Origin: a virus
Lineage: Duplodnaviria > Caudoviricetes
Reading direction: 5' to 3' (one strand)
DNA length: 64,000 nt
Virus record (IMG/VR): IMGVR_UViG_3300042139_000023
Part shown: piece by piece, positions 281 to 55,230 of the stretch
Numbering within the stretch: position 1 is the stretch's first letter
Layout: each line of letters opens with the position of its first letter
The notes under the pieces: generated by a model
What the model saw: the letters and a program-made list of their open reading frames with translations, nothing else
Told to the model about the DNA's origin: nothing
Database searches by the model: none
Translations under genes and position numbers: made by a program

Positions 281-852
281 GCAGCGGACTGACGGGCCTG
301 CGGGTCAAGGTCGGGCTGGCCGAGCGGCCGGTCTACGGTGTCGCCCGGGTCCGGTACAACGAGGGCCACACGCACGCCGGGAAGTACGAGATCGAGACGG
401 CCGACGGGACGTCTTTCCTCGCCCCGTTCGACACGTGCAGGCCCGGCGACAACTGGGACGTCACGCCGGAAGAGGGGCGGTTCACGGGAGCGGAGATCTT
501 CCGGCCGAACTTCCTGGACGGCACCGGCAAGGAGTTCCTGAGCCGGAGCCCCGGAGTCATCGTGCCCGGGAGCATGGCGCAGATGTGGAAGCTGCTCGAC
601 CCGGTCCGCAAGGGCTGGACGGTCGAGTGGTTCGGCCGTGGCGCCAACGAGTTCCGGGGCACGCTCACGGTCGCCGAGCGGGAAGAGGCGGCGTTCCGGC
701 TGACCGGGAAGTACCCGTTCCACTACGTGTGGCCGCAGGTGGGAGAGGAGTTCGAGGTCGACGGCAACACGCTGCACGAGGTGCGGGTGCCGCCGAAGAG
801 GACCGGGAAGCACCCGTCCCGGTCCCTGTCGCTCACGTTCCACCGGCCCTGA
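277..852 (+). CDS. hypothetical protein
   Basis: GTG at 277 in frame with ORF 67..852; overlaps upstream stop. Confidence 0.7.
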   Translation: MSSGLTGLRVKVGLAERPVYGVARVRYNEGHTHAGKYEIETADGTSFLAPFDTCRPGDNWDVTPEEGRFTGAEIFRPNFLDGTGKEFLSRSPGVIVPGSMAQMWKLLDPVRKGWTVEWFGRGANEFRGTLTVAEREEAAFRLTGKYPFHYVWPQVGEEFEVDGNTLHEVRVPPKRTGKHPSRSLSLTFHRP

Positions 853-4810: not shown

Positions 4811-5179
4811 ATGCACGAACAGGATGTGTGGCGGGTGCGGTTCACCCGGGAGCACGGGGAGCTGTGGTCGCAGACCCTGGAAGGGCTGATGACCTTCCGG
4901 TACGGGTCCAGCGGGACGTGGGCGGCGCATGCGGCCCTGATCCACTGGACCCGGGCGTGCGGGGTGCCGGGCAGTGCCGACAACTACCCGATGCGGTACC
5001 TGGCCGAAGCCATCCGCATGAAGGACGGTGAGGAGATCGTTGCCGGGAAGGCGACCGCCGTCCGGGACTCCCTGAACGGGAAGTTCCTCAACGAGAACCA
5101 GGTCGACATTCTCCAGTTCACGCCGGAGGGGACGCTGATCCACACCCGGGAGAGCTGGACCGTAGCCGAAAGGCACTGA
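4811..5179 (+). CDS. hypothetical protein
   Basis: ORF with RBS. Confidence 0.7.
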   Translation: MHEQDVWRVRFTREHGELWSQTLEGLMTFRYGSSGTWAAHAALIHWTRACGVPGSADNYPMRYLAEAIRMKDGEEIVAGKATAVRDSLNGKFLNENQVDILQFTPEGTLIHTRESWTVAERH

Positions 5180-5195
5180 AGGAAGGGAGTGGGGC

Positions 5196-5420
5196 ATGGC
5201 TCTCACGCTCACGAAGGAACCGACGCCGGAGATCACCGGCCCGATCACGATCAGCGCCGAGTGGAACCACTCGTGCACGTCGCAGTGCCCGAACCCGTGC
5301 CCGGCGTCGTCCCGGTTGACGCAGCCGGGCGTCACGGCCCGCATCCCGCAGCAGCCGGGGCCGCAGTCGCCCCCGCCGAAGACGCCGAAGGTCCCGCAGC
5401 AGCCGGGCCCCCGGGACTGA
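5196..5420 (+). CDS. Pro-rich small protein with CxxxCxxxC and two PQQPGP repeats
   Basis: ORF track; RBS. Confidence 0.6.
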   Translation: MALTLTKEPTPEITGPITISAEWNHSCTSQCPNPCPASSRLTQPGVTARIPQQPGPQSPPPKTPKVPQQPGPRD

Positions 5421-5447
5421 GACCCGAACGAGGAGAGGGAGAAGATC

Positions 5448-5891
5448 ATGGGCGAGTGGACGATGCACGGCCAGGTGTGGGCCGACGACGGCGACGTGGG
5501 CGGGGACACGCAGATCGGGAAGGCGGCAAGCGTCCGGTTCGTGAACCCGGACTGCCCCGGCGCCCGGGTCACGGTGTACGCCTACGCCTCCGCTCCCGAG
5601 CGCTCGATCGAGGCCAAGGTCGGTTCGATCGAGGTGTTCATGGGCTACGACGCCGACCTGGGCAACCTCGGGATCGAGTCGCAGGTCTGGTTCGAGATCG
5701 ACGACGACGCCGAGGGCGACGCCGACGAGTGGGACCCGACCTGGTCGGAGATCAGGTACGAGTCGCTGGACTCGTACATCGCCCCCGGGCCGGACGAGAA
5801 GCGGGTGGCCGTGGCCGAGGCGGCGGCGCTCGCCTGGGTCCGGGCGTACGACCCCAAGAAATTCATCAACTGGGACGGCAAGCGGTTCTGA
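5448..5891 (+). CDS. hypothetical acidic protein
   Basis: ORF with RBS. Confidence 0.7.
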   Translation: MGEWTMHGQVWADDGDVGGDTQIGKAASVRFVNPDCPGARVTVYAYASAPERSIEAKVGSIEVFMGYDADLGNLGIESQVWFEIDDDAEGDADEWDPTWSEIRYESLDSYIAPGPDEKRVAVAEAAALAWVRAYDPKKFINWDGKRF

Positions 5892-5966
5892 GCCGGTGCG
5901 TTCGGGGCGGCGGGAGCTGTGGGTTCCCGCCGCCCAGTGCACATCGGACGGAAGGAGAGGGAGAGC

Positions 5967-6938
5967 GTGAAGAGGTTCGAGGACGCCGAGAAGGTCACCC
6001 CGCAGCAGCTCAAGGGCATGACCCCGACACAGGTGGACGAGCTGTTCGCCGTCGCCTGGGATCACCGGTACGAGCTGGTGGAAGAGGTGTACGCCGCCTG
6101 GAACGAGGTGCACTACGCCGTCGGTGACCGCCGGGTCAGCACGCAGACGTGGCGCCTGGGTCATCAGGAGGTGCAGGACAAGGCCGCCGGGACCGAGCGG
6201 GGCCGCAAGGCGCTCGACCGGGTGAACCGGGCGAAGGGTTCGGTCGCCGAGCTGGACGGCACCGTGCTGGCCAAGCTGGAAGCCGAGTTCGACAGCCGGG
6301 GCGGATGGTCCCGGGCCTACCTGGTCACCGATGGCCACGTGCACAGCTCGATGCACTGCTCGTCGTGCAACCGGGGCGAGTTCCCGACCCGCTTCTTCTG
6401 GATGATCGACTACTCCGGGAAGAGCATGGCGGAGATCGTCGAGGCCGCTGGGGAACGGGCCTGCACCATCTGCTACCCGGATGCGCCGGTCGCCCGCAAG
6501 GACAAGGGTGAGACGGTGAACGTACCGAAGTCGGTGATGCTGACTTCCGAGGAGATCCAACGCGACGAGGCCAGGGATGCGGAGGCCAAGCGCCGGGCGG
6601 AGAAGAAGGCCAAAGCCGCGCTGAACGCCATCACGCAGCCCGACGGCACTCCCCTGCGGGACGAGGTGGACCGGGACGGCAGGCAGAAGGGCTCGGTCGT
6701 GAAGACCGTGCGCACGGCCCGGACCGAGCTGAAGCGGCAGTGCTGGTACGCGTACGCCTGGGGCGACGACGACGGCGCTCACGAGCGGAACATCCAGCAC
6801 CTGGGCAGGGCCGTGGCCTGGAAGGAGAACGGCCTGGCGATCGGGGACGAGCCGACCGCCGAACAGATCGAAGCGGTGATCAAGCCGCTGCGGGACAAGG
6901 CCGTGAAGGAAGTCGACAAGGCCCGAGCAGAGGGCTGA
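5967..6938 (+). CDS. hypothetical protein with HCSSC and CTICYPDAP Zn-binding motifs
   Basis: GTG after GAGAGGGAGAG; motif pair recalled from uncharacterised actinophage proteins. Confidence 0.75.
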   Translation: MKRFEDAEKVTPQQLKGMTPTQVDELFAVAWDHRYELVEEVYAAWNEVHYAVGDRRVSTQTWRLGHQEVQDKAAGTERGRKALDRVNRAKGSVAELDGTVLAKLEAEFDSRGGWSRAYLVTDGHVHSSMHCSSCNRGEFPTRFFWMIDYSGKSMAEIVEAAGERACTICYPDAPVARKDKGETVNVPKSVMLTSEEIQRDEARDAEAKRRAEKKAKAALNAITQPDGTPLRDEVDRDGRQKGSVVKTVRTARTELKRQCWYAYAWGDDDGAHERNIQHLGRAVAWKENGLAIGDEPTAEQIEAVIKPLRDKAVKEVDKARAEG

Positions 6939-6952
6939 AGGGGAGCGAGAAG

Positions 6953-7489
6953 ATGAACGAGACCACCATCCGCATCATCCACTGGATCTGGGGCGAGCCG
7001 AAGCTGGCCGACTTCCTGCGCGGCATCGCCGAGGGGGAGAAGATCCCGCCGCATGACGAGGCGTTCGAGTACGGGGACGACCAGCTCGCCTGCTGGATCT
7101 CCGACCTCGTCTTCCCGGAGGACCGCAGCCGGGGGATCAAGGCGTGGATCGACCTGGGCGGCAGCGACGAGCGGGCCGACGCCCTGTACGAGGCGCTGAC
7201 CGAGGGCCGCAAGACGCCCGCCGGGCGCCTGAAGTGGCTCGACGAGATGGACATCGGCCTGATCCGGGACGCCCTGCTGGGGCACAAGGGAGGATCGGAC
7301 ATCTACGTCCACTCCCTGGTCAAGCCGTACCACCCGAACAACACCTACCGGGTGCACGACTTCGGGACGGTCTACGAGCGGGGATGGACGTCGGCCTCCG
7401 GCGCCTGGGGGCTGGCCGAGAAGGACCGGCAGGTCTGCCCCAACCCGACGGTCTCACCGTGCGGGTGCACGGTGGTGCAGCGTGGCTGA
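6953..7489 (+). CDS. hypothetical protein
   Basis: ATG in frame with ORF 6740..7489. Confidence 0.7.
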   Translation: MNETTIRIIHWIWGEPKLADFLRGIAEGEKIPPHDEAFEYGDDQLACWISDLVFPEDRSRGIKAWIDLGGSDERADALYEALTEGRKTPAGRLKWLDEMDIGLIRDALLGHKGGSDIYVHSLVKPYHPNNTYRVHDFGTVYERGWTSASGAWGLAEKDRQVCPNPTVSPCGCTVVQRG

Positions 7490-7826
7490 ACTGGCCTGCA
7501 CCTGCGGTCCCGGCGATTCGGTCGCCGGGACCCGGCGGGAGATCGTCGAGCAGCGGCTGGCCGGACTCTTCAATCTCACGGTTCCCGAGGTTCATGCTCT
7601 GCTGGATCTGCTGGACCGCGCGAACGAGGCTGCACTGGACATCCCGGATGATGAACGGGACCCGGAGGGCGGGGAGACCGAACGCCAGATGGCCCGGGAA
7701 TCCGGCCGCACCGAGGGCTGGATCAAGAACTTCCTGAGCGCCTGGGAGTTCACGTCCACCGCACTGGACCAGGAACTGCACGAGAAGCACGGCCCGTGGG
7801 GCGGGCTCTTCGGCAAACAGTCCTGA
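7482..7826 (+). CDS. hypothetical protein
   Basis: ORF track. Confidence 0.65.
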   Translation: MAELACTCGPGDSVAGTRREIVEQRLAGLFNLTVPEVHALLDLLDRANEAALDIPDDERDPEGGETERQMARESGRTEGWIKNFLSAWEFTSTALDQELHEKHGPWGGLFGKQS

Positions 7827-7841
7827 ACAACTGGAACTTCA

Positions 7842-7860
7842 CGGCCTAGGTCAGTAGTAT
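7842..7860 (+). promoter_or_regulatory. operator-like CGGCCTAGGTCA followed by -10-like TAGTAT
   Basis: Intergenic copy of motif family. Confidence 0.6.
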
Positions 7861-7902
7861 TCGAGGGCCCCGGGAGAACCGGGGCCCGGGAGGAGAGACG
7901 GG

Positions 7903-8250
7903 ATGCAGCAGATGGACGAGTACCGGCGTACGGCGGAGTTCGTGGACGTGGTGGCCGGTGAGCCGGGCCAGGTGCACACGGTGTACCGCTTCCCGAACAC
8001 GGAGCACGGTCACGGCCGGGCGGTCGAGTACCGCAACGCCTACAACGAGTCCCTGCGCGAGGCGATGGAGATCCCGAAGGCCGATCTGGAACTGGAGCGT
8101 CCCGACTGGGGCCAGCGCCGGGAGGAGTACGACCGGGCGGAGAAGGTCGAGCTGTACCGGTACAACCAGGCGGGCCTGTCGTACGTGCACCCGCCCAAGC
8201 TGATCGGGCCGAACGACCCGATGCCGACCGACTACCCGCACGAGTTCTGA
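7903..8250 (+). CDS. hypothetical protein
   Basis: ORF with RBS. Confidence 0.7.
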   Translation: MQQMDEYRRTAEFVDVVAGEPGQVHTVYRFPNTEHGHGRAVEYRNAYNESLREAMEIPKADLELERPDWGQRREEYDRAEKVELYRYNQAGLSYVHPPKLIGPNDPMPTDYPHEF

Positions 8251-8261
8251 GGAGATCCGGG

Positions 8262-8573
8262 ATGGCTGCTGGACTGACCCGCGAGACCACGCACTACATC
8301 GTCCATTCCACGGTCGTCGACCCGGGACCGAACTCCACCTTCGGCACCTCTCCCCCGTACTCGGGTGAGCGGGCGCTGGAGCGGGCCGTCAAGGCGGCCC
8401 ATCAGGAGTTGCGGGGGCGGCGCCGGGCGTTCGTGACGGCCCGAGACGACGCAAGCCGGATCCTCGCCGTGATCCCGGTCGTGGACTACCCGGTTTTCGG
8501 GGACACGCACGTCCCCGAGCATGCGCAGGACGCCATCACGGCCCTCTTCGAGGGGCTGGACTGGACGATCTGA
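8262..8573 (+). CDS. hypothetical protein
   Basis: ORF track. Confidence 0.65.
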   Translation: MAAGLTRETTHYIVHSTVVDPGPNSTFGTSPPYSGERALERAVKAAHQELRGRRRAFVTARDDASRILAVIPVVDYPVFGDTHVPEHAQDAITALFEGLDWTI

Positions 8574-8644
8574 CCCGGACGAAACCGGGCCCCTGGGAAG
8601 GGCTCCCGGTAGGCGGAACAGGACCGCCCTGACGAGTCCCGTCA
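8571..8644 (+). ncRNA. type II hammerhead ribozyme
   Basis: GGAC-GAAA-CCGGG..CCCGG-TA (GTA site 8609-8611)-GGCGG loop CCGCC-CTGACGA-GTCC; complete core and three stems. Confidence 0.9.
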
Positions 8645-8660
8645 GCACGGAGAGGAGAAG

Positions 8661-8981
8661 GTGAACGTGAATGCCGAGCTGCCCAAGTCGATCGAGACGG
8701 TGACTCTCGCCGACATGCCGGTGGGGATGACCGCCTACACCGTCCCCTGGGCCATGTATGCGGACCAGGACAGGAAGTTGTGGCTCGACCCCAACTTCAC
8801 CTTCGAGAGGAAGTCGGGTGGCACCGTTCAGATGCGGGTCACGCGCCTTGACGAGGGCTTCCGGGTGGGCTACGTGCCCGGGGAGACGTACGAACCCGGG
8901 AACGGTCGAGCCTCCGATAAGGACGGCCTGCCCGTCGTCGCACTGACCGGGGCACCCGAAGCCGACGACACGAACGCCTGA
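8661..8981 (+). CDS. hypothetical protein directly downstream of hammerhead 1
   Basis: GTG after GGAGAGGAGAAG. Confidence 0.7.
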   Translation: MNVNAELPKSIETVTLADMPVGMTAYTVPWAMYADQDRKLWLDPNFTFERKSGGTVQMRVTRLDEGFRVGYVPGETYEPGNGRASDKDGLPVVALTGAPEADDTNA

Positions 8982-9005
8982 CCCACGAACGGATCGGAGA
9001 AGAAC

Positions 9006-9359
9006 ATGCCGGTGAGCTACGCCTTCAAGAAGGACGACGGGACCGACCAGGACCCGGCCACCGACCTGAGTCCGGCACAGCAGGCGTTCCTGGCCCTGAG
9101 CGAGATGGGGATCGGGATCCCCCGGCTGGACCGCAGCACCCTGGACGAATTCGTACGCCGCGCCGACCTGTTGCAGGCGTACGTCGGCATCGTGTGGCGC
9201 AACGGTGACGGGACGCCCCGGATCTTCACCCGAGCCGACTTCGTCGAGCTGCTGCCCGGTGCCCGTACCAACTGGACGGCCCGTAGCAAGCGGGACTTCG
9301 ACCAGGCCATGAAGAAGGAGATCGACGCGTACTGGAGCAGCGTCGACAGCCGGAAGTGA
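9006..9359 (+). CDS. hypothetical protein, paralog of 17815..18150
   Basis: Shared DEFVRRADL motif. Confidence 0.75.
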   Translation: MPVSYAFKKDDGTDQDPATDLSPAQQAFLALSEMGIGIPRLDRSTLDEFVRRADLLQAYVGIVWRNGDGTPRIFTRADFVELLPGARTNWTARSKRDFDQAMKKEIDAYWSSVDSRK

Positions 9360-9368
9360 GGGACGCCC

Positions 9369-9671
9369 ATGGTGGCGGACGAGAAGGGTGACGAGTACGA
9401 GGAGACGGCGATCGGCTATGCCATCGGTGTCCTCACGTACATGCAGAACGGCGGGAAGCTGTCGAGCATCGAGGCGACCGCCTCGGAGATCGTCCGGCTG
9501 GCCGGTCGGGAGCTGGCACAGAAGATGCCCGGCCCGGAGAAGGCCCGGGTGCTGATGGAGTCGGTCGAGGAGATGCGGCTCCGGCACAACAACCTGAACG
9601 CCGACGCGGTGTTCGAGGACATGATGGCGCAGGCGAGGAATGCCGGGCGCCTTCGGAGTGAGGGGAAGTAG
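9369..9671 (+). CDS. hypothetical protein
   Basis: ORF track. Confidence 0.7.
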   Translation: MVADEKGDEYEETAIGYAIGVLTYMQNGGKLSSIEATASEIVRLAGRELAQKMPGPEKARVLMESVEEMRLRHNNLNADAVFEDMMAQARNAGRLRSEGK

Positions 9672-9674
9672 AAC

Positions 9675-10121
9675 GTGGACAGCTTCATCAACGTGGCCGC
9701 CGCCGTGGTGACGACGCACGAGAGCGGGATGTACCGGAAGGGCGCCAACGCCGCCGCCGATCACGTGGTCGAGGCGATCGGGAAGTACGGCAAGTGGGTG
9801 GTGCTCGCCGCCGCCGAGCTGCACGAGAACTGGCCCGACGCGTTCGAGAACATCCCGGCCGACAAGGTCATGGAGTTCCTGGAGGAGAACTACCTGCACG
9901 CCGGGGCCACCATCGCCCACGCGCTGGAGACCTACGCCAAGGACGCCGGGGACCACACCGAGCTGGGCCGCCTGTACAACGCGCTCGACAAGGCGGGCGG
10001 CGTGGACCGGTTCGACTGGGGCTCGTACGCCGACGACGGCATGACCCCGACGATCGGCCTGCACTTCGTGCAGATGCCCACTCCGGCCGATGAGAACTCC
10101 GTCTTCATCTTCGGGAGCTGA
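9675..10121 (+). CDS. possible ArdA-like antirestriction protein
   Basis: FLEENYLHAG..RFDWGSYADD..VFIF resembles the ArdA C-terminal YFDYEAYARD..GHVF pattern. Confidence 0.4.
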   Translation: MDSFINVAAAVVTTHESGMYRKGANAAADHVVEAIGKYGKWVVLAAAELHENWPDAFENIPADKVMEFLEENYLHAGATIAHALETYAKDAGDHTELGRLYNALDKAGGVDRFDWGSYADDGMTPTIGLHFVQMPTPADENSVFIFGS

Positions 10122-10124
10122 GCC

Positions 10125-10442
10125 GTGCCGTGGCAGTCCGACCGGGGCGCGGTCCGGGAAGCCCTCATCGAAGCGAAGAAGATCAACGGCGTCGACCTGG
10201 GTCCTGCGACGCTCACGGAACAGGCCGGGGCGAGTGACAGCAACACCTGGTTCTGCCTCACGGGAACGTGGCGCCTGTACGCCCGCTTCCTGGCATCCGT
10301 GGCGGCGATCGATCCGCAGACCTCGGACATTCTGGACTTCAACATGAACCCCCGGGAGGCCGGGGACGGGGTGATGCACTTCTTCTTCATGGGGTGCGAG
10401 CTGGTCGACATCAGAAAGGGGAACGGTGCGAGGAGCGAGTGA
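10125..10442 (+). CDS. hypothetical protein
   Basis: ORF track. Confidence 0.6.
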   Translation: MPWQSDRGAVREALIEAKKINGVDLGPATLTEQAGASDSNTWFCLTGTWRLYARFLASVAAIDPQTSDILDFNMNPREAGDGVMHFFFMGCELVDIRKGNGARSE

Positions 10443-10842
10443 CCTGCTCGACTGGTGGACGGTTCCGGGTGCCCGCTGGGGAGTCCGGAACATCGACTTC
10501 AAGATCGAGCTGAAGCGGGACGGGGTGGCCAGCCCGGTCCTGCTGGAGGGGTACAGCGAGGAAGACCTGGCCGCGTTCGACGGCGGGGACTGGCAGTTCG
10601 TCATCGTCCGGGTGGTGCCGGTGGACCGGGACCTGACGGACCTGGTCAGCGCCGAGCGGTTCATCCGGGGTGTGGACTGGGGCGACCTGCCCCAGGGCCG
10701 CATCGACCGGGAGGACGTGACCGACGCGCAGGCGAAGGAGCTGGCCATCGAGTCGGTCCGGGCGCTGCGCAGCTTCGGAGTCACCGTCGAGACGGAACGG
10801 GACAGCGAGTTCGCCATCCCGCGCATCACGGCACCGTTCTGA
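10426..10842 (+). CDS. hypothetical protein
   Basis: ORF track. Confidence 0.65.
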   Translation: MRGASDLLDWWTVPGARWGVRNIDFKIELKRDGVASPVLLEGYSEEDLAAFDGGDWQFVIVRVVPVDRDLTDLVSAERFIRGVDWGDLPQGRIDREDVTDAQAKELAIESVRALRSFGVTVETERDSEFAIPRITAPF

Positions 10843-10917
10843 ACGAGCCCTGCGGAGCCCTCGCTGAGGGCCCCGTGGAGTCCGGGTCAGCCGGTGGAAA
10901 CGGAAGGGAGAAGAGGG

Positions 10918-11139
10918 ATGTTCACACTGGTGCTGTGCTTCCCGAGGCAGGGGAAGCGCCCGCAGTCGCAGAACACGGTGACCGGGGGCCACGTGCCGCA
11001 GATCGGTTCGACGATCAACACGACCGGGATGCGCTCCGGCTGCTGGCGAGTAACCAGCGTCGGGCAGGACGCCAGCGAGGAGACCTTCAGCAGCACGGTC
11101 TACGTCTACCTGGCCGACACCTACGAGGAGAACGACTGA
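10918..11139 (+). CDS. hypothetical protein
   Basis: ATG after GGGAGAAGAGGG. Confidence 0.6.
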   Translation: MFTLVLCFPRQGKRPQSQNTVTGGHVPQIGSTINTTGMRSGCWRVTSVGQDASEETFSSTVYVYLADTYEEND

Positions 11140-11483
11140 TGGGCCACCACATCAAGGTCGAGCGGTACGGCCTGGACCACAAGCTGGAGAGCAGCGAGGA
11201 GTTCAACGCGCCCTCGTGGGAGGGCATCTGGCAGGCCGTCGAGGGCGAGATGGAGCGCACCGGCAAGACGCCGAGCGGGATGGAGGGCTGGGAAGAGGGC
11301 GGCTGTGTCCTGGACCCGGACCACGACTGCGACGCCGAGCCCAGCAAGTGCCAGGAGAACTTGAAGGAGGCGATCCGGGACTGGATCAAGTCGGCCTGGG
11401 AGCACAGCGAACTCCAGACCGGCAGCTTCCACTTCGGCGGCGCGGACTGGTCGTCGGTCACCTTCGGATGGGACGGGAAGTAG
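11139..11483 (+). CDS. hypothetical protein
   Basis: TGATG coupling. Confidence 0.65.
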   Translation: MGHHIKVERYGLDHKLESSEEFNAPSWEGIWQAVEGEMERTGKTPSGMEGWEEGGCVLDPDHDCDAEPSKCQENLKEAIRDWIKSAWEHSELQTGSFHFGGADWSSVTFGWDGK

Positions 11484-11486
11484 ATC

Positions 11487-11807
11487 ATGAGCAACGAGGA
11501 CAAGCTGCGCGTCAAGGAAACGCCGACCCGGGTGGAAGGCCAGCCCGTGATCAAGGGCAGCTTCCTGGGGTGGCAGCCGGACCTGGTCCTGGCGAAGACG
11601 CCGGGCTACTTCGCCTTCGTCGTCACGTACGACACGAGCCCCGAGCGCAACGGTGACCCGGACGCCTACAGCGTCCACCTGATGCGGGCCACCTCGCTCG
11701 ACGGCCGGTGGCTGCGCATCGACAGCCGCCGGAATCTGTTCTGGAGCGAGGCCGAGTCCGCGTTCAACGAGCACGACAAGCTGGCCATCCGGCCGGGGAG
11801 GATCTGA
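11487..11807 (+). CDS. hypothetical protein
   Basis: ORF track. Confidence 0.65.
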   Translation: MSNEDKLRVKETPTRVEGQPVIKGSFLGWQPDLVLAKTPGYFAFVVTYDTSPERNGDPDAYSVHLMRATSLDGRWLRIDSRRNLFWSEAESAFNEHDKLAIRPGRI

Positions 11808-11809
11808 AC

Positions 11810-12139
11810 ATGGCAGGCATCCGCATCGCCGAGCGTGACGGCACGAACGTCCTGCACCCGACGGTCTGGGTCGACCCGGACGAGGTGCCGGTCATCTTCG
11901 TGATCGTGAAGAGCGGGGCAATGGCGCTCGCTCACCCCGACTACATCGGCTCGACGCTGTACGACATCGAGCAGGGTGACCTCTCGATCGAGGAGGCGTG
12001 GGACTTCATCCAGGTGAAGACCCCGAAGATGCCGTTCCCGCAGCACTGCCACATCCGCAGGCTGACCGGGACCGGTGGCGGCGCCGAGATCGTCGTCAAG
12101 GGCCAGGTCGTGCACCGGATCGCGGGGGTGAACGAGTGA
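11810..12139 (+). CDS. hypothetical protein
   Basis: ATG in frame with 11708..12139. Confidence 0.65.
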   Translation: MAGIRIAERDGTNVLHPTVWVDPDEVPVIFVIVKSGAMALAHPDYIGSTLYDIEQGDLSIEEAWDFIQVKTPKMPFPQHCHIRRLTGTGGGAEIVVKGQVVHRIAGVNE

Positions 12140-29021: not shown

Positions 29022-29299
29022 ACTCCGGACTGTTCGAAGCGGGGGTCGTCGAGCTGCCGAACGGCGGGCGCATCACCGTCGTGGAGTTCATGGGGCAGCC
29101 GATCGCCGAGGGCCCGGCCGAGGCACTGGACGGCGAGGGGGCGGTCGAGGAGATCCAGGAAGCCTTCTGCGCCGCTCTCGTCGCCACCCTGTCCCTGGTG
29201 ATGGGGAGCCAGGAGTTCGGCCGGTACGCGCCCAGGGAGTGGACGTACTGGCATCCGATGGCCCCGCCCCTGGCGAGGCTTCCGAAGGGAGAAGAGTGA
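29018..29299 (+). CDS. hypothetical protein
   Basis: GTGA overlap. Confidence 0.6.
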   Translation: MNSGLFEAGVVELPNGGRITVVEFMGQPIAEGPAEALDGEGAVEEIQEAFCAALVATLSLVMGSQEFGRYAPREWTYWHPMAPPLARLPKGEE

Positions 29300-29547
29300 T
29301 GAAGGGCATGGACGGGCTGATCGTCACGGCGGTCAACCGGATGCACGAGGACGAGCTGGAGATGCGGCGCCGCTGGGCCGAGCGCATCCGGGAGGAGTTC
29401 GGGAAGTACCACGAGCACTCCGGCGGCGGTGAGTGCGGCGCCTGCGGGGCGATCCAGGGGGCGAACTGGATGGACCCGGACTACGTCAAGGACGGCCCGG
29501 TCGCGGAGCCGTTCGGGACCTGGAAGGACCGCCAGCCCCAGGTGTGA
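29299..29547 (+). CDS. hypothetical protein
   Basis: TGATG coupling. Confidence 0.65.
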   Translation: MKGMDGLIVTAVNRMHEDELEMRRRWAERIREEFGKYHEHSGGGECGACGAIQGANWMDPDYVKDGPVAEPFGTWKDRQPQV

Positions 29548-29617
29548 CTGACCCGAGGCCGAAACGCCGCACCCAGCGGCGTCGCGCAGTGAGACTGCGC
29601 CTGACGATGGCCGTCAG
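29548..29617 (+). ncRNA. type II hammerhead ribozyme, variant with extra U between A9 and G10.1
   Basis: CTGAC-ccga-GGCC-GAAA-CGCCGC loop GCGGCG-TC (GTC site 29581-29583)-GCGCAG loop CTGCGC-CTGACGA-T-GGCC-GTCAG. Confidence 0.85.
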
Positions 29618-29635
29618 TGGAGGGAGGGGAGAGTA

Positions 29636-29842
29636 GTGAGGAAGCGGGATTCGACGGCCGACGAGGTCTACGACTGGGCGGTGAAGCAGAAGCTGCCCGC
29701 GCCGGACGCATTCGCCATGCGGTACTGGGATCTCGCCGGGGCGACGGTCAGGCTGGGTCTGGCTGCCAGGCTCTGGCGACGGCAGGTCAGGAACGGCACC
29801 ACGGGATTCCCACTGGTGGACGGGGATCGAACGGACGCGTAA
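29636..29842 (+). CDS. hypothetical protein downstream of hammerhead 2
   Basis: GTG after GGAGGGAGGGGGAG. Confidence 0.6.
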   Translation: MRKRDSTADEVYDWAVKQKLPAPDAFAMRYWDLAGATVRLGLAARLWRRQVRNGTTGFPLVDGDRTDA

Positions 29843-29890
29843 GCAGTCCGGAAGACAGGCGAAGCGGTTCGGAAGGGATGAGGAAGAGGC

Positions 29891-30367
29891 ATGGAATTCG
29901 TGGAACCGAAGCGCGGTGACCGGATCGCCAGCGGCGGCCGGATCACGACGATCGACAGCTTCAGCGAGGACGACGGGACGTTCCTGCGCAGCGGGCAGTG
30001 GGTCGACATCTCGGACTTCGAGAAGAACGAGGACGGAGTGTGGGTTCGCACCCATTCGCCCCGTACGTACGAGATCGGTGAGCCGTACAAAGTCAGCTCC
30101 CTGCGCAAGGGTGTCGCCGTCGTCCGGCCCGCCGTATTCGCCGGAGGAGTGAGCGGCAAGGACAAGGTGGTCACCACCTCGCCGTGCTGCCAGCTCTACA
30201 TGCGGCGCCTGGACTTCGGCGACCTCACGTCCGACCTGGCGGCCCGGCAGGGGGGCTGGTCGGAGCAGTGCAACTCCTGCAAGGCGTACTACAAGGTCAT
30301 GCTCATGTTCACCGGCAGCCCCCGGCTCGGCCTGTACGGCGTGCGCTGGGAATCCCTGGGGTTCTGA
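29891..30367 (+). CDS. hypothetical protein
   Basis: ORF with RBS. Confidence 0.7.
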   Translation: MEFVEPKRGDRIASGGRITTIDSFSEDDGTFLRSGQWVDISDFEKNEDGVWVRTHSPRTYEIGEPYKVSSLRKGVAVVRPAVFAGGVSGKDKVVTTSPCCQLYMRRLDFGDLTSDLAARQGGWSEQCNSCKAYYKVMLMFTGSPRLGLYGVRWESLGF

Positions 30368-51496: not shown

Positions 51497-51569
51497 TGCT
51501 CCTGGCAGGATTCGAACCTGCGACATCCGGATCCGGAATCCGGTGCTCTATCCCCTGAGCTACAGAAGC
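51497..51569 (-). tRNA. tRNA-Arg(CCG)
   Basis: Full cloverleaf; loop TT-CCG-GA. Confidence 0.95.
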
Positions 51570-51580
51570 GTTTTCCGATC

Positions 51581-51976
51581 TCACCAGATGTCGTACAGCA
51601 TCCGGCGAGGAACCTTCTCGGCCTTCTCGTACAGCCGACGTTCGAGTTCACCCTTCGTTCGGCGCCCGGCCTCCAGCTTGCCCTTCACGTACCGCCGGTT
51701 GGCCCGCTCGTGCTTCTGGGCCCAGTAGGTACGGCTGGAGCTGGGTGTCCAGGCCCCGGTGTAGGTCCACCAGCGAGCGGTGCGCCTCACCTTCCGGGGC
51801 TGCGGCCTGCGGCCCTGCTCCTCGGCATCGCGGAGTTCCGCAGCGCTGTAGCGCAGGTCGTAGACCGTGTGCTCACGGACGGGGATGACGGGGCGGCCCC
51901 GCCAGTACATGCAGTACCCGTCCGGCCACTCCCGGATGTCGAACTTGCCCTTCAGGTGATGTGCCGTCTTGCCCAT
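51581..51976 (-). CDS. basic hypothetical protein within tRNA cluster
   Basis: ORF track; GGAGG RBS. Confidence 0.65.
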   Translation of the reverse strand: MGKTAHHLKGKFDIREWPDGYCMYWRGRPVIPVREHTVYDLRYSAAELRDAEEQGRRPQPRKVRRTARWWTYTGAWTPSSSRTYWAQKHERANRRYVKGKLEAGRRTKGELERRLYEKAEKVPRRMLYDIW

Positions 51977-52077
51977 CGGAATGCATCCTCCTAGGGCCGC
52001 GAGTTTCGCGGACCTAGGTGAAGCCGGTGGAGAATCCCATCATCACTCCAGACTGTTCAGGTACGGATGTTCCTGAG

Positions 52078-52175
52078 TGCGCGAGGCAGGGATCGAACCT
52101 GCACTGGACGTCTCCTCAGAGCCTTTCCGAGTGCCCTGTTCGCCGGGCTCTGACTCGGAGTACTCTTGCACGCGC
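52078..52175 (-). ncRNA. tRNA-like RNA with H-type pseudoknot replacing D and anticodon arms
   Basis: GCGCGUG/CUCGCGC acceptor; GCAGG-UUCGAUC-CCUGC T arm; UCCGAGU/ACUCGGA crossed with CAGAGCC/GGCUCUG. Confidence 0.65.
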
Positions 52176-52266
52176 GACCGCACTGCGCAATGCGGCCCTT
52201 TACCACCGACTGTAATTCCGACCGGGTTTTTCAGACCACGGAAGGACATAGTGTCGTCGGCACACG

Positions 52267-52339
52267 CTCTCCTGACTGGACTTGAACCAGTAACATCCGC
52301 ATTAACAGTGCGGCGCTCTGCCGGTTGAGCTACAGGAGA
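52267..52339 (-). tRNA. tRNA-Asn(GTT)
   Basis: Cloverleaf; CT-GTT-AA. Confidence 0.95.
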
Positions 52340-52478
52340 TCGAATCTGAAATTGTTTTCGTGGGCCTCATCCCTAGCACCACGCGGCGCACCGACCTTGT
52401 TCTGCTGCGCTTCTCAACTGTCCTGGCCGTCGGGCGGATGGCGACCAGGCAGTACTCCTATCTCCGCCACGTACTACG

Positions 52479-52550
52479 CTCCCCAGCCTGGATTTGAACC
52501 AAGAACGCCTGACCCAGAATCAGGTGTTTTGCCAGTTAAACTACCGGGGA
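52479..52550 (-). tRNA. tRNA-Gln(CTG)
   Basis: Cloverleaf; TT-CTG-GG. Confidence 0.93.
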
Positions 52551-52663
52551 TCGCTATGTAATTGTTGGCAACCGGACGGCAATGTTTCCGCTCTCGGGAT
52601 GCTTCCACTCGTATATCCTGCCCGCCACAGCAGAACCGTGTCCACATCTTACCGTCCGGCCAG

Positions 52664-52738
52664 TGGCCCCGACTGGACTCGAACCAGTGACCTCTGGGAT
52701 TTCACTCCAGCGCTCTTACACACCTGAGCTACAGGGCC
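52664..52738 (-). tRNA. tRNA-Phe(GAA)
   Basis: Cloverleaf; GT-GAA-AT. Confidence 0.9.
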
Positions 52739-52889
52739 TTGCACCCCTTGATGTATAGCTGGGCAGGGGCCGCCCTCCACTCACCTTCCGGAGAAGGTTG
52801 GCTCATGGACTCGCTTTGCCTCACTCTCTGCCCCGTGGATAGTGGTCTCGTGAACCACGAACTCCACGGGAATCCGCCTCCGAAGCCAG

Positions 52890-52967
52890 CGCACCTGACG
52901 GGATTTGAACCCGCGAAAATCTCCGCCTTGACAGGGCGGCGAGGACTCCAGACTCCTCCACAGGTGC
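52890..52967 (-). tRNA. tRNA-Asp(GTC)
   Basis: Cloverleaf; CT-GTC-AA; G73. Confidence 0.93.
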
Positions 52968-52974
52968 ATGTTTC

Positions 52975-53418
52975 TTATTCTTCTAGGCTAGACCACCATC
53001 CGAACTGAATGCCAGTCCTTTTCAGATGACAGTTCGCGCATCGAACGTCACATTTTTCGATCTCCTTCAGAACCGACTCCCATTTCATTGCATTCTTGAT
53101 CATGGTGGAAATCGGGTACAGCTTTTCCGAAGGCTCTCGATGGTCGAACTGTAAGACTCGGATGTCTGATTCACCGCAATCGACACAAGGCTTATCCTTC
53201 AGGTACTCCACGATCTTCTCGCGAAGCTCCTTCATGATTCTTTTGTTGCGTGTTCTCGCCTTGTCGACGTAAGCCTGTTTATTGTTGCTGTAGTGATTTC
53301 GAACGTACTCGCGCTGACAGTCGTGGCAGTGCTTGTACGTATACGGCTTTCCCTCCTTTACTGTCGTTCTGAACTCTGAATCAGGCTTGTCTTCATCGCA
53401 CTTGGTACAAATAGGCAT
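52975..53418 (-). CDS. HNH/His-Me endonuclease, likely homing
   Basis: CxxC..CxxC, CVDCG..FDHR..CANCH; AT-rich relative to flanks. Confidence 0.8.
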   Translation of the reverse strand: MPICTKCDEDKPDSEFRTTVKEGKPYTYKHCHDCQREYVRNHYSNNKQAYVDKARTRNKRIMKELREKIVEYLKDKPCVDCGESDIRVLQFDHREPSEKLYPISTMIKNAMKWESVLKEIEKCDVRCANCHLKRTGIQFGWWSSLEE

Positions 53419-53432
53419 TGATAGCTTTCAGG

Positions 53433-53507
53433 TCGAGGTGGCGAGATTTGAACTCGCGTCCTTCCGATCCGTAGTCGGCTGCCCCATCCGAACTGGGCCA
53501 CACCTCG
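53433..53507 (-). tRNA. tRNA-Arg(ACG) with C1:G72 Pro-like acceptor
   Basis: Cloverleaf; CT-ACG-GA. Confidence 0.9.
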
Positions 53508-53597
53508 TTCAGCCTTTCACCCTTCGCGCCAAGCGTGACCAAGGCAGGATCCAGGCCGACCACACCCAAGCCCCAGGAAGCCGTGAGGATGCGGCAG

Positions 53598-53670
53598 TAC
53601 GCCCTACTGGACTTGAACCAGTGACACGAGGATTAAGAATCCCCTGCTCTGCCAACTGAGCTAAGGGCGC
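53598..53670 (-). tRNA. tRNA-Lys(CTT)
   Basis: Cloverleaf; TT-CTT-AA. Confidence 0.95.
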
Positions 53671-53677
53671 GCGTTCT

Positions 53678-53800
53678 TCAGTTCTGCTTGTCGTCCTTGG
53701 GGCCCCAGTAGTGGCCCGTGTAGACGTGGACGGGATATCCGTCCTGCTGCACCTTCTTCAGGTGCCCTTCGTACGTCCGAGCTTTGCACTTACAGCTCAC
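53678..53800 (-). CDS. 40-aa hypothetical protein
   Basis: GTG after AAAGAAGGTG. Confidence 0.5.
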   Translation of the reverse strand: MSCKCKARTYEGHLKKVQQDGYPVHVYTGHYWGPKDDKQN

Positions 53801-53956
53801 GATCGCACCTTCTTTCTTGTCCCGATTTTCACAGGAACCCCTGGCTTCCCGGGACAGCGTTTCACCAGGGGTCTGCCTAACATCCAGCCGGGTCTGTCCT
53901 CCCGAGCCTTCCGCTGGCATACAGCTAACGGATTATGAGTCCGCGCTGCACCTTCG

Positions 53957-54030
53957 TATCCCTGACTGGACTTGAACCAGTGGCCTTTCCCTTATGAGGG
54001 GAGTGCTCTGACCAACTGAGCTACAGGGAC
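53957..54030 (-). tRNA. tRNA(CAT): elongator Met or Ile2
   Basis: Cloverleaf; CT-CAT-AA; G1 paired, so not initiator. Confidence 0.9.
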
Positions 54031-54035
54031 CTGCG

Positions 54036-54108
54036 AGCCTCCGACCGGAATTGAACCGATGGCATCCGACTTACGAAGACGGCGCTCTACCGACTGAGCT
54101 ACGGAGGC
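54036..54108 (-). tRNA. tRNA-Thr(CGT)
   Basis: Cloverleaf; TT-CGT-AA. Confidence 0.93.
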
Positions 54109-54295
54109 ATTCGGGGAAACCGCCCTGCTACTACCGACCCTCCCGCTCCGACCGGCAGACGCTTTCCCCTACGCAAGATGCCATCCTTGCACTCTTCGGC
54201 TCGCGAAACCGATGGCGCGGGAACTGCGGTTTCCTGGCGGAGTGGACGACGTCGTAAAGGAAAGAGGTACTTCCAGTACGCCGCCAGGAAACCAG

Positions 54296-54370
54296 TCGGA
54301 ATGACAGGATTTGAACCTGCGAACCTCTCCGTCCCGAACGGAGCGCTCTACCAAGCTGAGCTACATTCCG
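54296..54370 (-). tRNA. tRNA-Pro(CGG)
   Basis: Cloverleaf; C1:G72, A73. Confidence 0.95.
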
Positions 54371-54418
54371 GTAAAGGTTCCCCAGGGTGACGGGGGGATT
54401 GTAACCCCGGGGAACCAG

Positions 54419-54493
54419 CAGGGACAGCAGGATTTGAACCTGCGACACGCGGCTTTGGAGACCGCTGCTCTGGCCAAGCTGAGCTATATCCCT
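54419..54493 (-). tRNA. tRNA-Trp(CCA)
   Basis: Cloverleaf; CT-CCA-AA; G73. Confidence 0.95.
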
Positions 54494-54582: not shown

Positions 54583-55230
54583 TCACGCACGGCGAAGGAA
54601 GGAGAACCCCGTTCCCGTGCTCGTGCAGGTCTGAAGCGCGACCGAGGCGCCGAAACCGGCCGACGGAAAGGTGCCGCCCTGACTGCCGCGCTTCGCCCAG
54701 CCGTGGCCGTACACCCGGTACGTCCCGGCCAGGCCACCCGACGTGATGACGACCTTCCGGCCCACGGGCAGGTCGTCCATCCAGGCCCAGCCCATGTAGT
54801 TGTGGCCCGCCAGCGTCTTCACCCCGGCCGGGTAGTACAGCGTCAGCTTCCCGGCGTCGATGCAGCGCTGGGCCGCCGCCACGGCCGAGCCGCAGAAGGC
54901 GTACCCACCGATCCTGGTGACCTTCTCGACCGGCTTCTTCTTCACCGGTCTCGTCGGCTTCGGCCGGGGCTTGGCGGCGGGCTTCGGTTTCACCACGGAC
55001 TTCCGCACGACGGGCGCCTTCGTCCGAACGGGCGGCGTGAAGGACGGCCTGGCTTCCGGCTTCGGCCCTTCGGTCCGGCCGAGTGGCGGAAGTTCGATGC
55101 GGATGGAGGGTACGACTGCTGCCGCCATGGCGGGTCGGCGCTCATCGGCACCAGCCGCTCCGGCGGCCGTACAGGTCGAGGCCACCAGTGCCCCAGCAGC
55201 GCCCAGCGCCAGCAGTCGTCTCCGTCTCAC
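54583..55230 (-). CDS. exported sortase-fold protein
   Basis: RRRR plus hydrophobic signal; Pro/Lys linker; LAGHN and ALQTC motifs. Confidence 0.6.
   Translation of the reverse strand: MRRRRLLALGAAGALVASTCTAAGAAGADERRPAMAAAVVPSIRIELPPLGRTEGPKPEARPSFTPPVRTKAPVVRKSVVKPKPAAKPRPKPTRPVKKKPVEKVTRIGGYAFCGSAVAAAQRCIDAGKLTLYYPAGVKTLAGHNYMGWAWMDDLPVGRKVVITSGGLAGTYRVYGHGWAKRGSQGGTFPSAGFGASVALQTCTSTGTGFSFLRRA

What the first reader, a model, noticed from the sequence alone, without database searches (positions are those of the whole stretch)
8571..8644. Textbook type II hammerhead ribozyme between two early genes
Seen in sequence: stem II GGAC(8577-80)/GTCC(8636-39), extended by TGAC/GTCA; GAAA at 8581-84; stem III CCGGG/CCCGG; triplet GTA (predicted cut after 8611); stem I GGCGG/CCGCC with loop AACAGGA; core CTGACGA at 8629-35. 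It begins at the upstream stop codon and ends just before the next RBS. Established: this matches the hammerhead consensus. Inference: it cuts the polycistronic early mRNA, and the downstream cistron then has a 5'-OH end, which 5'-monophosphate-preferring RNase E/J attack poorly. The loop I GG may pair with the CC bulge of stem II as the tertiary contact.
Basis: partly seen in the sequence, partly recalled or inferred. Interest (0 to 1): 0.88.

Follow-up and report, generated by a model that had tools for sequence, protein, structure and literature searches.

The report
Hammerhead ribozyme between two phage genes
A small self-cutting RNA motif (a type II hammerhead ribozyme) fills the gap between two tiny genes of a large soil Streptomyces phage and probably cuts their shared message in two; such elements are already known in phages, so this is a clean new example, not a new kind of thing.

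Summary
Window 8570-8645 (+) carries a complete type II hammerhead: core CUGACGA, GAAA, the A15.1-U16.1 pair, cleavage-site A8611 and three helices. The element alone folds into exactly this junction. A permissive descriptor finds it once in the window and never in 300 shuffles. It is conserved in at least seven Streptomyces phages and in Xanthomonas phage Xp15, and is better conserved than the flanking genes. Across 15 family members only the two free core positions vary (N7 = C/U; H17 = A/U/C, never G), and the helices covary strongly. Each related phage genome carries three such elements, each running from a stop codon to the next ribosome-binding site. It scores below Rfam's threshold (16.6 versus 37 bits) and is unannotated in GenBank relatives.

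Cleavage itself is untested. The claim that a 5'-OH end protects against RNase J conflicts with the glmS/RNase J1 precedent. The proposed GG-CC contact is not kept in the nearest orthologues. "Early genes" is unverified. A predicted competing hairpin (the 3' arm pairing with the core) is nearly isoenergetic with the active fold.

Type II hammerheads between phage genes were described in 2011, and this scan has already found them on other genomes. Verdict: new member of a known kind, modest interest.

The parts
8262..8573 (+). Upstream small gene (103 aa, no known family). Its stop codon UGA (8571-73) lies inside the outer 5' arm of stem II.
   Evidence: orthologues are annotated as hypothetical proteins in Frankenweenie, JustBecause and Kela
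8570..8574 (+). Outer helix of stem II, 5' arm CUGAC (pairs with 8641-8645)
   Evidence: invariant in 15 of 17 family elements
8575..8576 (+). Internal loop CC of stem II, opposite C8640. Candidate docking site for loop I; C8576 is invariant, C8575 is not.
8577..8580 (+). Inner helix of stem II, 5' arm GGAC (C8580 = C11.1)
8581..8583 (+). Core G12 A13 A14
   Evidence: invariant in all 15 aligned elements
8584..8610 (+). Stem III hairpin (A15.1-U16.1, then CCGGG/CCCGG, then an inner CCC/GGG helix). It would become the 3'-terminal hairpin of the upstream fragment.
   Evidence: helix 3 is 100% paired, with 5 pairs showing double-sided changes
8611..8611 (+). H17 (A). The predicted scissile bond lies between 8611 and 8612.
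   Evidence: standard hammerhead numbering; this column is A, U or C, never G, in 15 of 15 elements
8612..8628 (+). Stem I hairpin GGCGG-AACAGGA-CCGCC. It would become the flush 5'-terminal hairpin of the downstream fragment.
   Evidence: helix 4 is 100% paired, with 4 pairs showing double-sided changes
8629..8635 (+). Core C3 U4 G5 A6 C7 G8 A9
   Evidence: only N7 varies (C/U)
8636..8645 (+). 3' arm of stem II (GUCC, C, GUCAG). It can also pair with the core 8629-8634 to form a competing hairpin.
8649..8660 (+). Purine-rich ribosome-binding site of the downstream gene
   Evidence: sequence inspection
8661..8981 (+). Downstream small gene (106 aa), found only in close relatives and absent from Frankenweenie
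29546..29620 (+). Paralogous second type II hammerhead of the same design. It has the same CUGAC/GUCAG outer helix, different stems I, II-inner and III, and an extra U between A9 and G10.1.
   Evidence: (56.7 bits, E 8e-14 with model R2)

Best explanation
Window 8570-8645 (+) encodes a genuine type II hammerhead self-cleaving ribozyme. It occupies the whole spacer between two co-oriented small genes of a large (about 185-200 kb class) Streptomyces phage.

Shown: the sequence has every conserved core nucleotide and the three helices, the family covaries, and the element is under stronger constraint than its flanking genes.

Inferred: when the genes are transcribed as one RNA, the ribozyme folds and cuts between A8611 and G8612 by internal transesterification. 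The upstream message then ends in the stem III hairpin plus one nucleotide carrying a 2',3'-cyclic phosphate. The downstream message starts with a 5'-OH guanosine already paired in the stem I hairpin, followed by a free ribosome-binding site. The type II topology therefore caps both new ends with hairpins and uncouples the two cistrons, in stability and perhaps in translation. It is one of two such elements in this window and of three in each complete relative.
For: - Exact anatomy at the stated coordinates, and the MFE fold equals the hammerhead junction.
- One descriptor hit in the window against 0 in 300 shuffles.
- Rfam's Hammerhead_II model aligns the whole core, though below threshold.
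- Orthologues occur in Frankenweenie, JustBecause, Kela, Satis, Quantum, Kradal and EhyElimayoE, and a look-alike in Xanthomonas phage Xp15.
- The element is 96/89/88/87% identical to the first four, while the upstream gene is 84/84/83/56%.
- In 15 family members, 96.6% of pair cells are paired against 33-50% with slid partners. 14 of 23 pairs show double-sided changes, and the covariation score is 0.387 against at most 0.06.
- The only variable core positions are N7 and H17, and H17 is never G.
- There are three hammerheads per complete relative genome, all on the gene strand. The two extra ones checked in Frankenweenie also run from stop codon to RBS.
- The published precedent is hammerheads flanking single genes in prophages that cleave in vitro and in vivo (PMC3088659). 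Type II hammerheads have also been shown to be active in vivo in Desulfovibrio (PMC8782182).
Against: - No cleavage data exist for this element.
- The Rfam score is far below the gathering threshold (16.6 versus 37 bits).
- No clear tertiary contact is present: the loop I/3'-tail pseudoknot typical of type II hammerheads is absent, and the proposed GG-CC pair is not conserved.
- A competing hairpin (core CUGACG with CGUCAG of the 3' arm) lies only 2 kcal/mol above the active fold in the isolated element. It is predicted to dominate completely in 200-720 nt contexts, and even in isolation in Frankenweenie, JustBecause, Satis and L019.
- Three orthologues (JustBecause, Kela, L019) carry a U-U mismatch at 10.1/11.1, which the 2011 survey treated as disqualifying.
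- A soil metatranscriptome contig runs uncut across the site. This shows only that uncut RNA or contaminating DNA exists.
Confidence: 0.78

Rival explanations
1. It is a hammerhead, but a gated one. The element is bistable, and the 3' arm GUCAG pairs either with the 5' arm CUGAC (active) or with the identical CUGAC of the catalytic core (inactive). The upstream gene's stop codon sits inside the 5' arm, so a terminating ribosome would block the active fold. Cleavage would then depend on how the upstream gene is being translated, or on co-transcriptional timing.
For: - Active fold -35.5 versus alternative fold -33.5 kcal/mol. Stem II probability falls to about 0 and the alternative hairpin rises to 0.6-1.0 in longer contexts.
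- The alternative fold is predicted dominant in four orthologues.
- CUGAC/GUCAG is invariant across three paralogue classes whose other helices all differ.
- The stop codon is embedded in or abuts the 5' arm in HH1, HH2 and HH3.
- The 3' product is predicted to refold into stem I plus this hairpin with the RBS free.
Against: - If the 5' arm is CUGAC for any reason (stop codon, common descent), complementarity of the 3' arm to the core follows automatically, so it need not be selected.
- Nearest-neighbour energies ignore Mg2+ and tertiary docking and are unreliable for long GC-rich RNAs.
- Xp15 and the four hammerheads of L020 lack the outer helix altogether.
- There are no experimental data.
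Confidence: 0.15
2. It is a hammerhead-derived sequence that is now catalytically weak or silent. It would be kept as a structured spacer (end-protecting hairpins, an RNase entry site) or as a conserved linker at which gene cassettes are exchanged between phages.
For: - U-U at 10.1/11.1 in three orthologues.
- The predicted dominance of the inactive fold.
- A gene (8661-8981) present or absent exactly at the 3' edge of the element, with RBS-like direct repeats at both joints.
- Satis-group phages share the element but not the flanking genes.
Against: A mere spacer or recombination linker would not keep every catalytic nucleotide invariant while letting only N7 and H17 drift, with H17 never G. 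It would also not keep pairing through compensatory changes in paralogues with unrelated helices.
Confidence: 0.06
3. It is a chance resemblance, or another kind of RNA signal such as an intrinsic terminator or an RNase III hairpin.
For: The DNA is GC-rich and folds readily; the fold z-score is only -1.2. Rfam's b55 sRNA model gave a weak partial match.
Against: 0 of 300 shuffles give a hit. No U-tract follows any hairpin, and no terminator-like site was found here. Covariation supports the three-way junction.
Confidence: 0.01

Closest known systems
Type II hammerhead ribozymes of bacteria, prophages and phages (Perreault et al. 2011, PMC3088659; Rfam RF02276)
   Same: Identical catalytic core, A15.1-U16.1, H17 and G10.1-C11.1. 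[quoted passage not shown] The location is intergenic between small same-strand phage genes, with several copies per genome.
   Different: Stem II is long and bipartite (4 bp, a CC/C internal loop, then 5 bp) instead of the 2-bp stem typical of the consensus. No loop I/3'-tail pseudoknot of 4 or more pairs is present. The upstream stop codon sits inside stem II. It scores only 16.6 bits against a gathering score of 37. The hosts are Streptomyces phages, for which no hammerhead report was found.
Triple hammerhead arrangement flanking ardA in an Agrobacterium tumefaciens prophage (PMC3088659)
   Same: Multiple hammerheads cut a polycistronic phage transcript into gene-length pieces. In that case cleavage was shown in vitro and in E. 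coli.
   Different: The ribozyme sequences differ. The genes flanking the present element have no recognisable function, and nothing has been tested here.
Three type II hammerheads of Desulfovibrio vulgaris, shown active in vivo by cyPhyRNA-seq (PMC8782182)
   Same: Same ribozyme type in a bacterial setting. They show that such predictions usually hold in cells.
   Different: A different lineage, with no sequence relationship examined here.
glmS ribozyme / RNase J1 decay pathway (Collins et al. 2007, as summarised in PMC3328962)
   Same: Self-cleavage leaves a 5'-OH on the downstream mRNA fragment.
   Different: Here the 5'-OH nucleotide is base-paired in a flush hairpin, which may change the outcome.

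Membership tests
Hammerhead ribozyme (class) | Core strand C3-U4-G5-A6-N7-G8-A9 | tested here: met
   CUGACGA at 8629-35. Invariant except N7 (C/U) in 15 elements.
Hammerhead ribozyme (class) | Core strand G12-A13-A14 followed by the A15.1-U16.1 pair | tested here: met
   GAA at 8581-83 and A8584-U8610. AU in 15 of 15 elements (pair 21-64).
Hammerhead ribozyme (class) | Cleavage-site nucleotide H17 is not G and is followed directly by stem I | tested here: met
   A8611 then G8612. The column is A, U or C in 15 of 15 elements.
Hammerhead ribozyme (class) | Three helices radiating from the core, supported by covariation | tested here: met
   96.6% of cells paired, 14 pairs with double-sided changes, and slid controls at 33-50%. 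Caveat: the alignment was fitted to the model.
Hammerhead ribozyme (class) | G10.1-C11.1 pair next to the core | tested here: met
   G8636-C8580 in the window. Not met in the orthologues JustBecause, Kela and L019, which have U-U.
Hammerhead ribozyme (class) | Mg2+-dependent self-cleavage giving 2',3'-cyclic phosphate and 5'-OH ends | not testable with these tools
   Only assembled contigs of RNA libraries were available, and these cannot show RNA ends.
Type II topology | Stems I and III closed by loops, with the 5' and 3' ends leaving through stem II | tested here: met
Rfam RF02276 Hammerhead_II | Score at or above the curated gathering threshold (37 bits) | tested here: not met
   16.6 bits, E 0.55 in a 221-base search, and no hit at gathering over the window. 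This is a threshold of one curated model, not a defining property of the ribozyme class.
Rfam RF02276 Hammerhead_II / Perreault type II consensus | Pseudoknot of 4 or more pairs between loop I and the tail 3' of stem II (present in a majority, not all) | tested here: not met
   There is no complement of loop I AACAGGA in 8640-8660. Only a 2-bp GG/CC match to the 5' internal loop is possible. The paper says about 40% of hammerheads use a pseudoknot, so this feature is typical, not defining.

The most novel reading that the evidence does not exclude
The ribozyme is a translation-gated, bistable switch. The upstream gene's stop codon lies in the 5' arm of stem II, and that arm (CUGAC) duplicates the catalytic core's C3-C7. 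The 3' arm can therefore close either the active junction or a hairpin that buries the core. Ribosome occupancy at the stop codon, or co-transcriptional timing, would decide whether the message is cut. After cutting, the same hairpin would make the reaction irreversible and leave the RBS free. This would be a natural hammerhead whose activity reads out translation of the preceding gene.
Probability: 0.15. Interest if true: 0.7.

Novelty: new member of a known kind. Interest (0 to 1): 0.35.

Why it matters
It adds an unannotated ribozyme family to a group of cultured Streptomyces phages whose deposited records name S. lividans, S. scabiei and S. griseofuscus as hosts. Each genome has two or three copies, and standard Rfam-based annotation misses them. 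The open question of what phage hammerheads are for could therefore be tested by ordinary genetics in this system.

Natural variants provide ready-made comparisons. These include H17 = A, U or C; a U-U mismatch at 10.1/11.1; an extra nucleotide after A9 in the paralogues; and presence or absence of the downstream gene. The stop-codon-in-stem-II design and the competing hairpin suggest a testable link between translation and cleavage. Beyond that, the finding is an expected instance of a phenomenon described in 2011.

Tried and rejected
- Rfam at gathering threshold over the whole window found only 11 tRNAs.
- The window's whole genome is not held, so other copies could be sought only in relatives.
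- RNA evidence: the public runs that hold this stretch are kept only as assembled contigs. Laying four RNA or RNA-labelled runs gave contigs that bridge the cut site (X16, 8532-8733) and contigs of a relative lacking gene 8661-8981. Contigs cannot show RNA ends, so nothing can be said about cleavage, and transcription is only weakly suggested.
- Weak CM hits at window 54636-54699 and L022 3645-3714 lack the core and were rejected.
- In the viral scan for the stem I + core word, most of the 27 hits had no GAAA or stem III and were rejected as chance hairpins. In the genome scan 12 of 13 hits were chance; only L051 is a hammerhead.
- Pfam and PHROGs gave nothing for eight neighbouring proteins, including no ArdA match for 9675-10121.
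- The 'inactive Xanthomonas phage hammerhead-like RNA' of Perreault's Figure S7 could not be identified from the text held. It is said to deviate from the core at more than one position, which the Xp15 element found here does not.
- A permutation test of loop I/internal-loop complementarity was not run, because nearly all elements contain CC and GG by composition and the test would have no power.
- Terminator and promoter scans of 5000-12000 found nothing between the two genes.

Full report
**1. The observation**

Reading window 8400-8800 confirms each element at the coordinates given.
- The upstream ORF (8262-8573) ends in UGA at 8571-73.
- A CC/C internal loop follows, then GGAC 8577-80 pairs with GUCC 8636-39.
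- G12-A13-A14 are at 8581-83. A8584 pairs with U8610 and closes stem III (CCGGG/CCCGG plus an inner CCC/GGG helix).
- H17 is A8611.
- Stem I is GGCGG/CCGCC with loop AACAGGA.
- The core CUGACGA is at 8629-35.

In standard hammerhead numbering every invariant position is present, G10.1-C11.1 included, and the scissile bond lies between 8611 and 8612.

The MFE structure of 8571-8644 is exactly this junction. The energy z-score (-1.2) is unremarkable, as expected in 67% GC DNA, so the fold energy alone proves nothing.

The better chance test is a descriptor. It requires GAAA, U-H, CUGANGA and three stems of at least 4 pairs with G-U allowed. It gives one hit in the window on both strands and none in 300 dinucleotide shuffles of the whole window.

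**2. Database status**

Rfam at gathering thresholds reports only the tRNA array at 51.5-54.5 kb. With permissive settings, Hammerhead_II aligns the entire core but scores 16.6 bits against a threshold of 37. The loss comes from the long stem III loop and the long bipartite stem II, where the model expects a 2-bp stem followed by a pseudoknot tail. The GenBank records of the relatives annotate nothing at this position.

**3. Relatives**

blastn against phage records finds the element in Streptomyces phages Frankenweenie, JustBecause, Kela, Satis, Quantum, Kradal and EhyElimayoE (184-200 kb genomes). An 80%-identical core occurs in Xanthomonas phage Xp15, again between two small same-strand genes.

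In the Satis group only the element matches; the flanking genes do not. By global alignment the element is 96/89/88/87% identical to Frankenweenie/JustBecause/Kela/Satis, while the upstream gene is 84/84/83/56%.

Viral metagenome contigs add further orthologues (L013, L016, L018, L019, L022) and two more divergent sources:
- L015 has an entirely different stem III.
- L020 is a 38.5-kb contig with four type II hammerheads in 3 kb.

**4. Covariation**

A covariance model built from eight orthologues recovers all of these, plus a second element in the window at 29546-29620. On the 15-member alignment:
- 96.6% of pair cells are standard pairs, against 33-50% when partners are slid by 1-3 columns.
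- 14 of 23 pairs show changes on both sides.
- The covariation score is 0.387, against at most 0.06 in the controls.

The alignment was fitted to the model, which favours the structure. However, the stems of the paralogues are plainly different sequences that still pair. In the core only N7 (C or U) and H17 (A, U or C, never G) vary, which are exactly the two positions the hammerhead consensus leaves free.

**5. Family design**

A second model finds three hammerheads in each of Frankenweenie, JustBecause and Satis. All lie on the gene strand within 20-30 kb. Xp15 has one and L020 has four. The window has two.

In Frankenweenie the other two also run from the stop codon of one small gene to just before the RBS of the next. 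In L020 each hammerhead starts at a UAG.

The paralogues carry an extra nucleotide between A9 and G10.1: U in most, C in JustBecause HH3. From my own recollection, an extra residue at this position is tolerated in some viroid hammerheads (De la Pena and Flores 2001). I did not check this here.

**6. How it most likely works**

The two genes are co-oriented, with no promoter-like or terminator-like site between them. Published work on prophage hammerheads shows cleavage of polycistronic transcripts into gene-length pieces in vitro and in E. coli (PMC3088659). Type II hammerheads are active in vivo in Desulfovibrio (PMC8782182).

I therefore infer cleavage between 8611 and 8612. The type II topology has a specific consequence that can be read from the sequence:
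- The upstream fragment ends in the stem III hairpin plus one nucleotide carrying a cyclic phosphate.
- The downstream fragment begins with G8612 already paired in stem I, followed by an unpaired RBS (fold of 8612-8700).

From general knowledge of bacterial mRNA decay, terminal hairpins hinder 3' exonucleases and 5'-end-dependent RNases, and a cyclic phosphate cannot be polyadenylated. Stabilisation of both products is thus plausible but unproven.

There the 5'-OH product is the preferred substrate of RNase J1 (PMC3328962).

**7. Caveats and an unexpected feature**

The 5' arm of the outer helix (CUGAC) is identical to core positions C3-C7. The 3' arm (C8640 + GUCAG) can therefore pair with the core to give the hairpin CUGACG/CGUCAG.
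- In the isolated 81-nt element the active fold is -35.5 and this alternative -33.5 kcal/mol, giving 0.8 versus 0.17 occupancy.
- In 200-720 nt contexts the predicted probability of stem II drops to about 0 and the alternative rises to 0.6-1.0.
- In Frankenweenie, JustBecause, Satis and L019 the alternative fold is predicted to dominate even in isolation.

These energies ignore Mg2+ and tertiary docking, so they do not show inactivity. They do mean that cleavage probably depends on folding kinetics. Because the stop codon lies in the 5' arm, it may also depend on ribosome traffic.

The outer helix sequence is invariant across the three paralogue classes, whose other helices all differ. This is consistent with a dual-pairing constraint. 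It is equally explained by the embedded stop codon or by common descent.

An earlier follow-up in this scan (e1-3485193) noted a competing helix in type II hammerheads of an unrelated phage. I did not examine that case.

**8. Tertiary contact**

The loop I/3'-tail pseudoknot typical of type II hammerheads is absent. However, Frankenweenie, L022, JustBecause and Kela have AC, and Satis and L019 have AGC. Only C8576 and G8621 are invariant.

Among the paralogues, loop I and the 5' internal loop do change together in several cases: UGG/CCA twice, UGGA/UCCG and UGGG/CCCG. The window's own second element (UGAGA/CCGA) cannot form two pairs. The idea of a loop I/internal-loop contact is reasonable for the family, but it is not established for this copy.

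**9. Other points**
- JustBecause, Kela and L019 have U-U at 10.1/11.1 with both sides changed. The 2011 survey would have rejected such hits, and their activity is an open question.
- The gene after the ribozyme differs between close relatives. Frankenweenie's post-ribozyme gene is the orthologue (93% aa) of window 9006-9359. Metagenomic contigs join 8654 directly to 8996. Both joints carry similar ACGGA...GGAGAAG strings. So the cassette 8661-8981 was gained or lost at the ribozyme's 3' edge.
- No paper on hammerheads in Streptomyces phages or in Xp15 was found in the library searched.
- The window's DNA occurs in many rhizosphere and soil metagenomes.

**10. Verdict**

This is a real, conserved type II hammerhead and a new member of a known kind. 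The scan has already reported type II hammerheads between phage genes on other genomes. Interest is modest. The most interesting open reading is the translation-gated switch.

Noticed in passing
window 29546-29620 (+): Second type II hammerhead of the same design, between ORFs 29239-29547 and 29617-29919. It has an extra U between A9 and G10.1. The extra nucleotide is conserved in all HH2/HH3-type copies of relatives (C in one). Its isolated fold has z = -3.45.
   Followed up: partly
window 8654-8996: The gene 8661-8981 immediately after the ribozyme is missing in Frankenweenie and in metagenomic relatives, whose contigs join 8654 to 8996. Similar RBS-like strings (ACGGA..GGAGAAG) flank both joints, suggesting cassette gain or loss at the ribozyme's 3' edge.
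   Followed up: partly
L005 1501-1562 (Xanthomonas phage Xp15, record 396-457, minus strand): An unannotated canonical type II hammerhead, 80% identical to the Streptomyces-phage element, with the same stem I and nearly the same loop I. It lies between gp02 and gp01. This similarity between phages of an actinobacterium and a gammaproteobacterium is striking.
   Followed up: partly
L020 519-3503 (IMG/VR contig of 38.5 kb): Four type II hammerheads within 3 kb. Each begins at or just after a UAG stop codon, and all have 4-bp GGCC- or GGUC-type stem II without an outer helix.
   Followed up: no
L002 1509-1588, L004 1509-1588, L019 2271-2352 (-): Orthologues in JustBecause, Kela and a metagenomic Satis-like phage have U at both 10.1 and 11.1. 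This is a two-sided change to a U-U mismatch next to the core, seen in JustBecause/Kela and again in a Satis-like contig.
   Followed up: no
L041/L042 (Frankenweenie 165383-165460, JustBecause 150536-150613): A third hammerhead class, present about 11 kb from HH1 in relatives, has no counterpart in this window at E <= 1.
   Followed up: no
L051 about 560-640 (gammaproteobacterial MAG contig): It was the only real hammerhead among the 13 hits, in about 185,000 species genomes, to the word for the cleavage triplet, this stem I and the core. It is followed directly by an RBS and ATG.
   Followed up: no
window 51497-54493 (-): An array of 11 tRNA genes on the minus strand.
   Followed up: no
window 9675-10121 (+): This ORF was proposed elsewhere in the scan as ArdA-like. 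It gave no ArdA or other significant match in Pfam (E <= 0.1) or PHROGs (E <= 0.01).
   Followed up: partly
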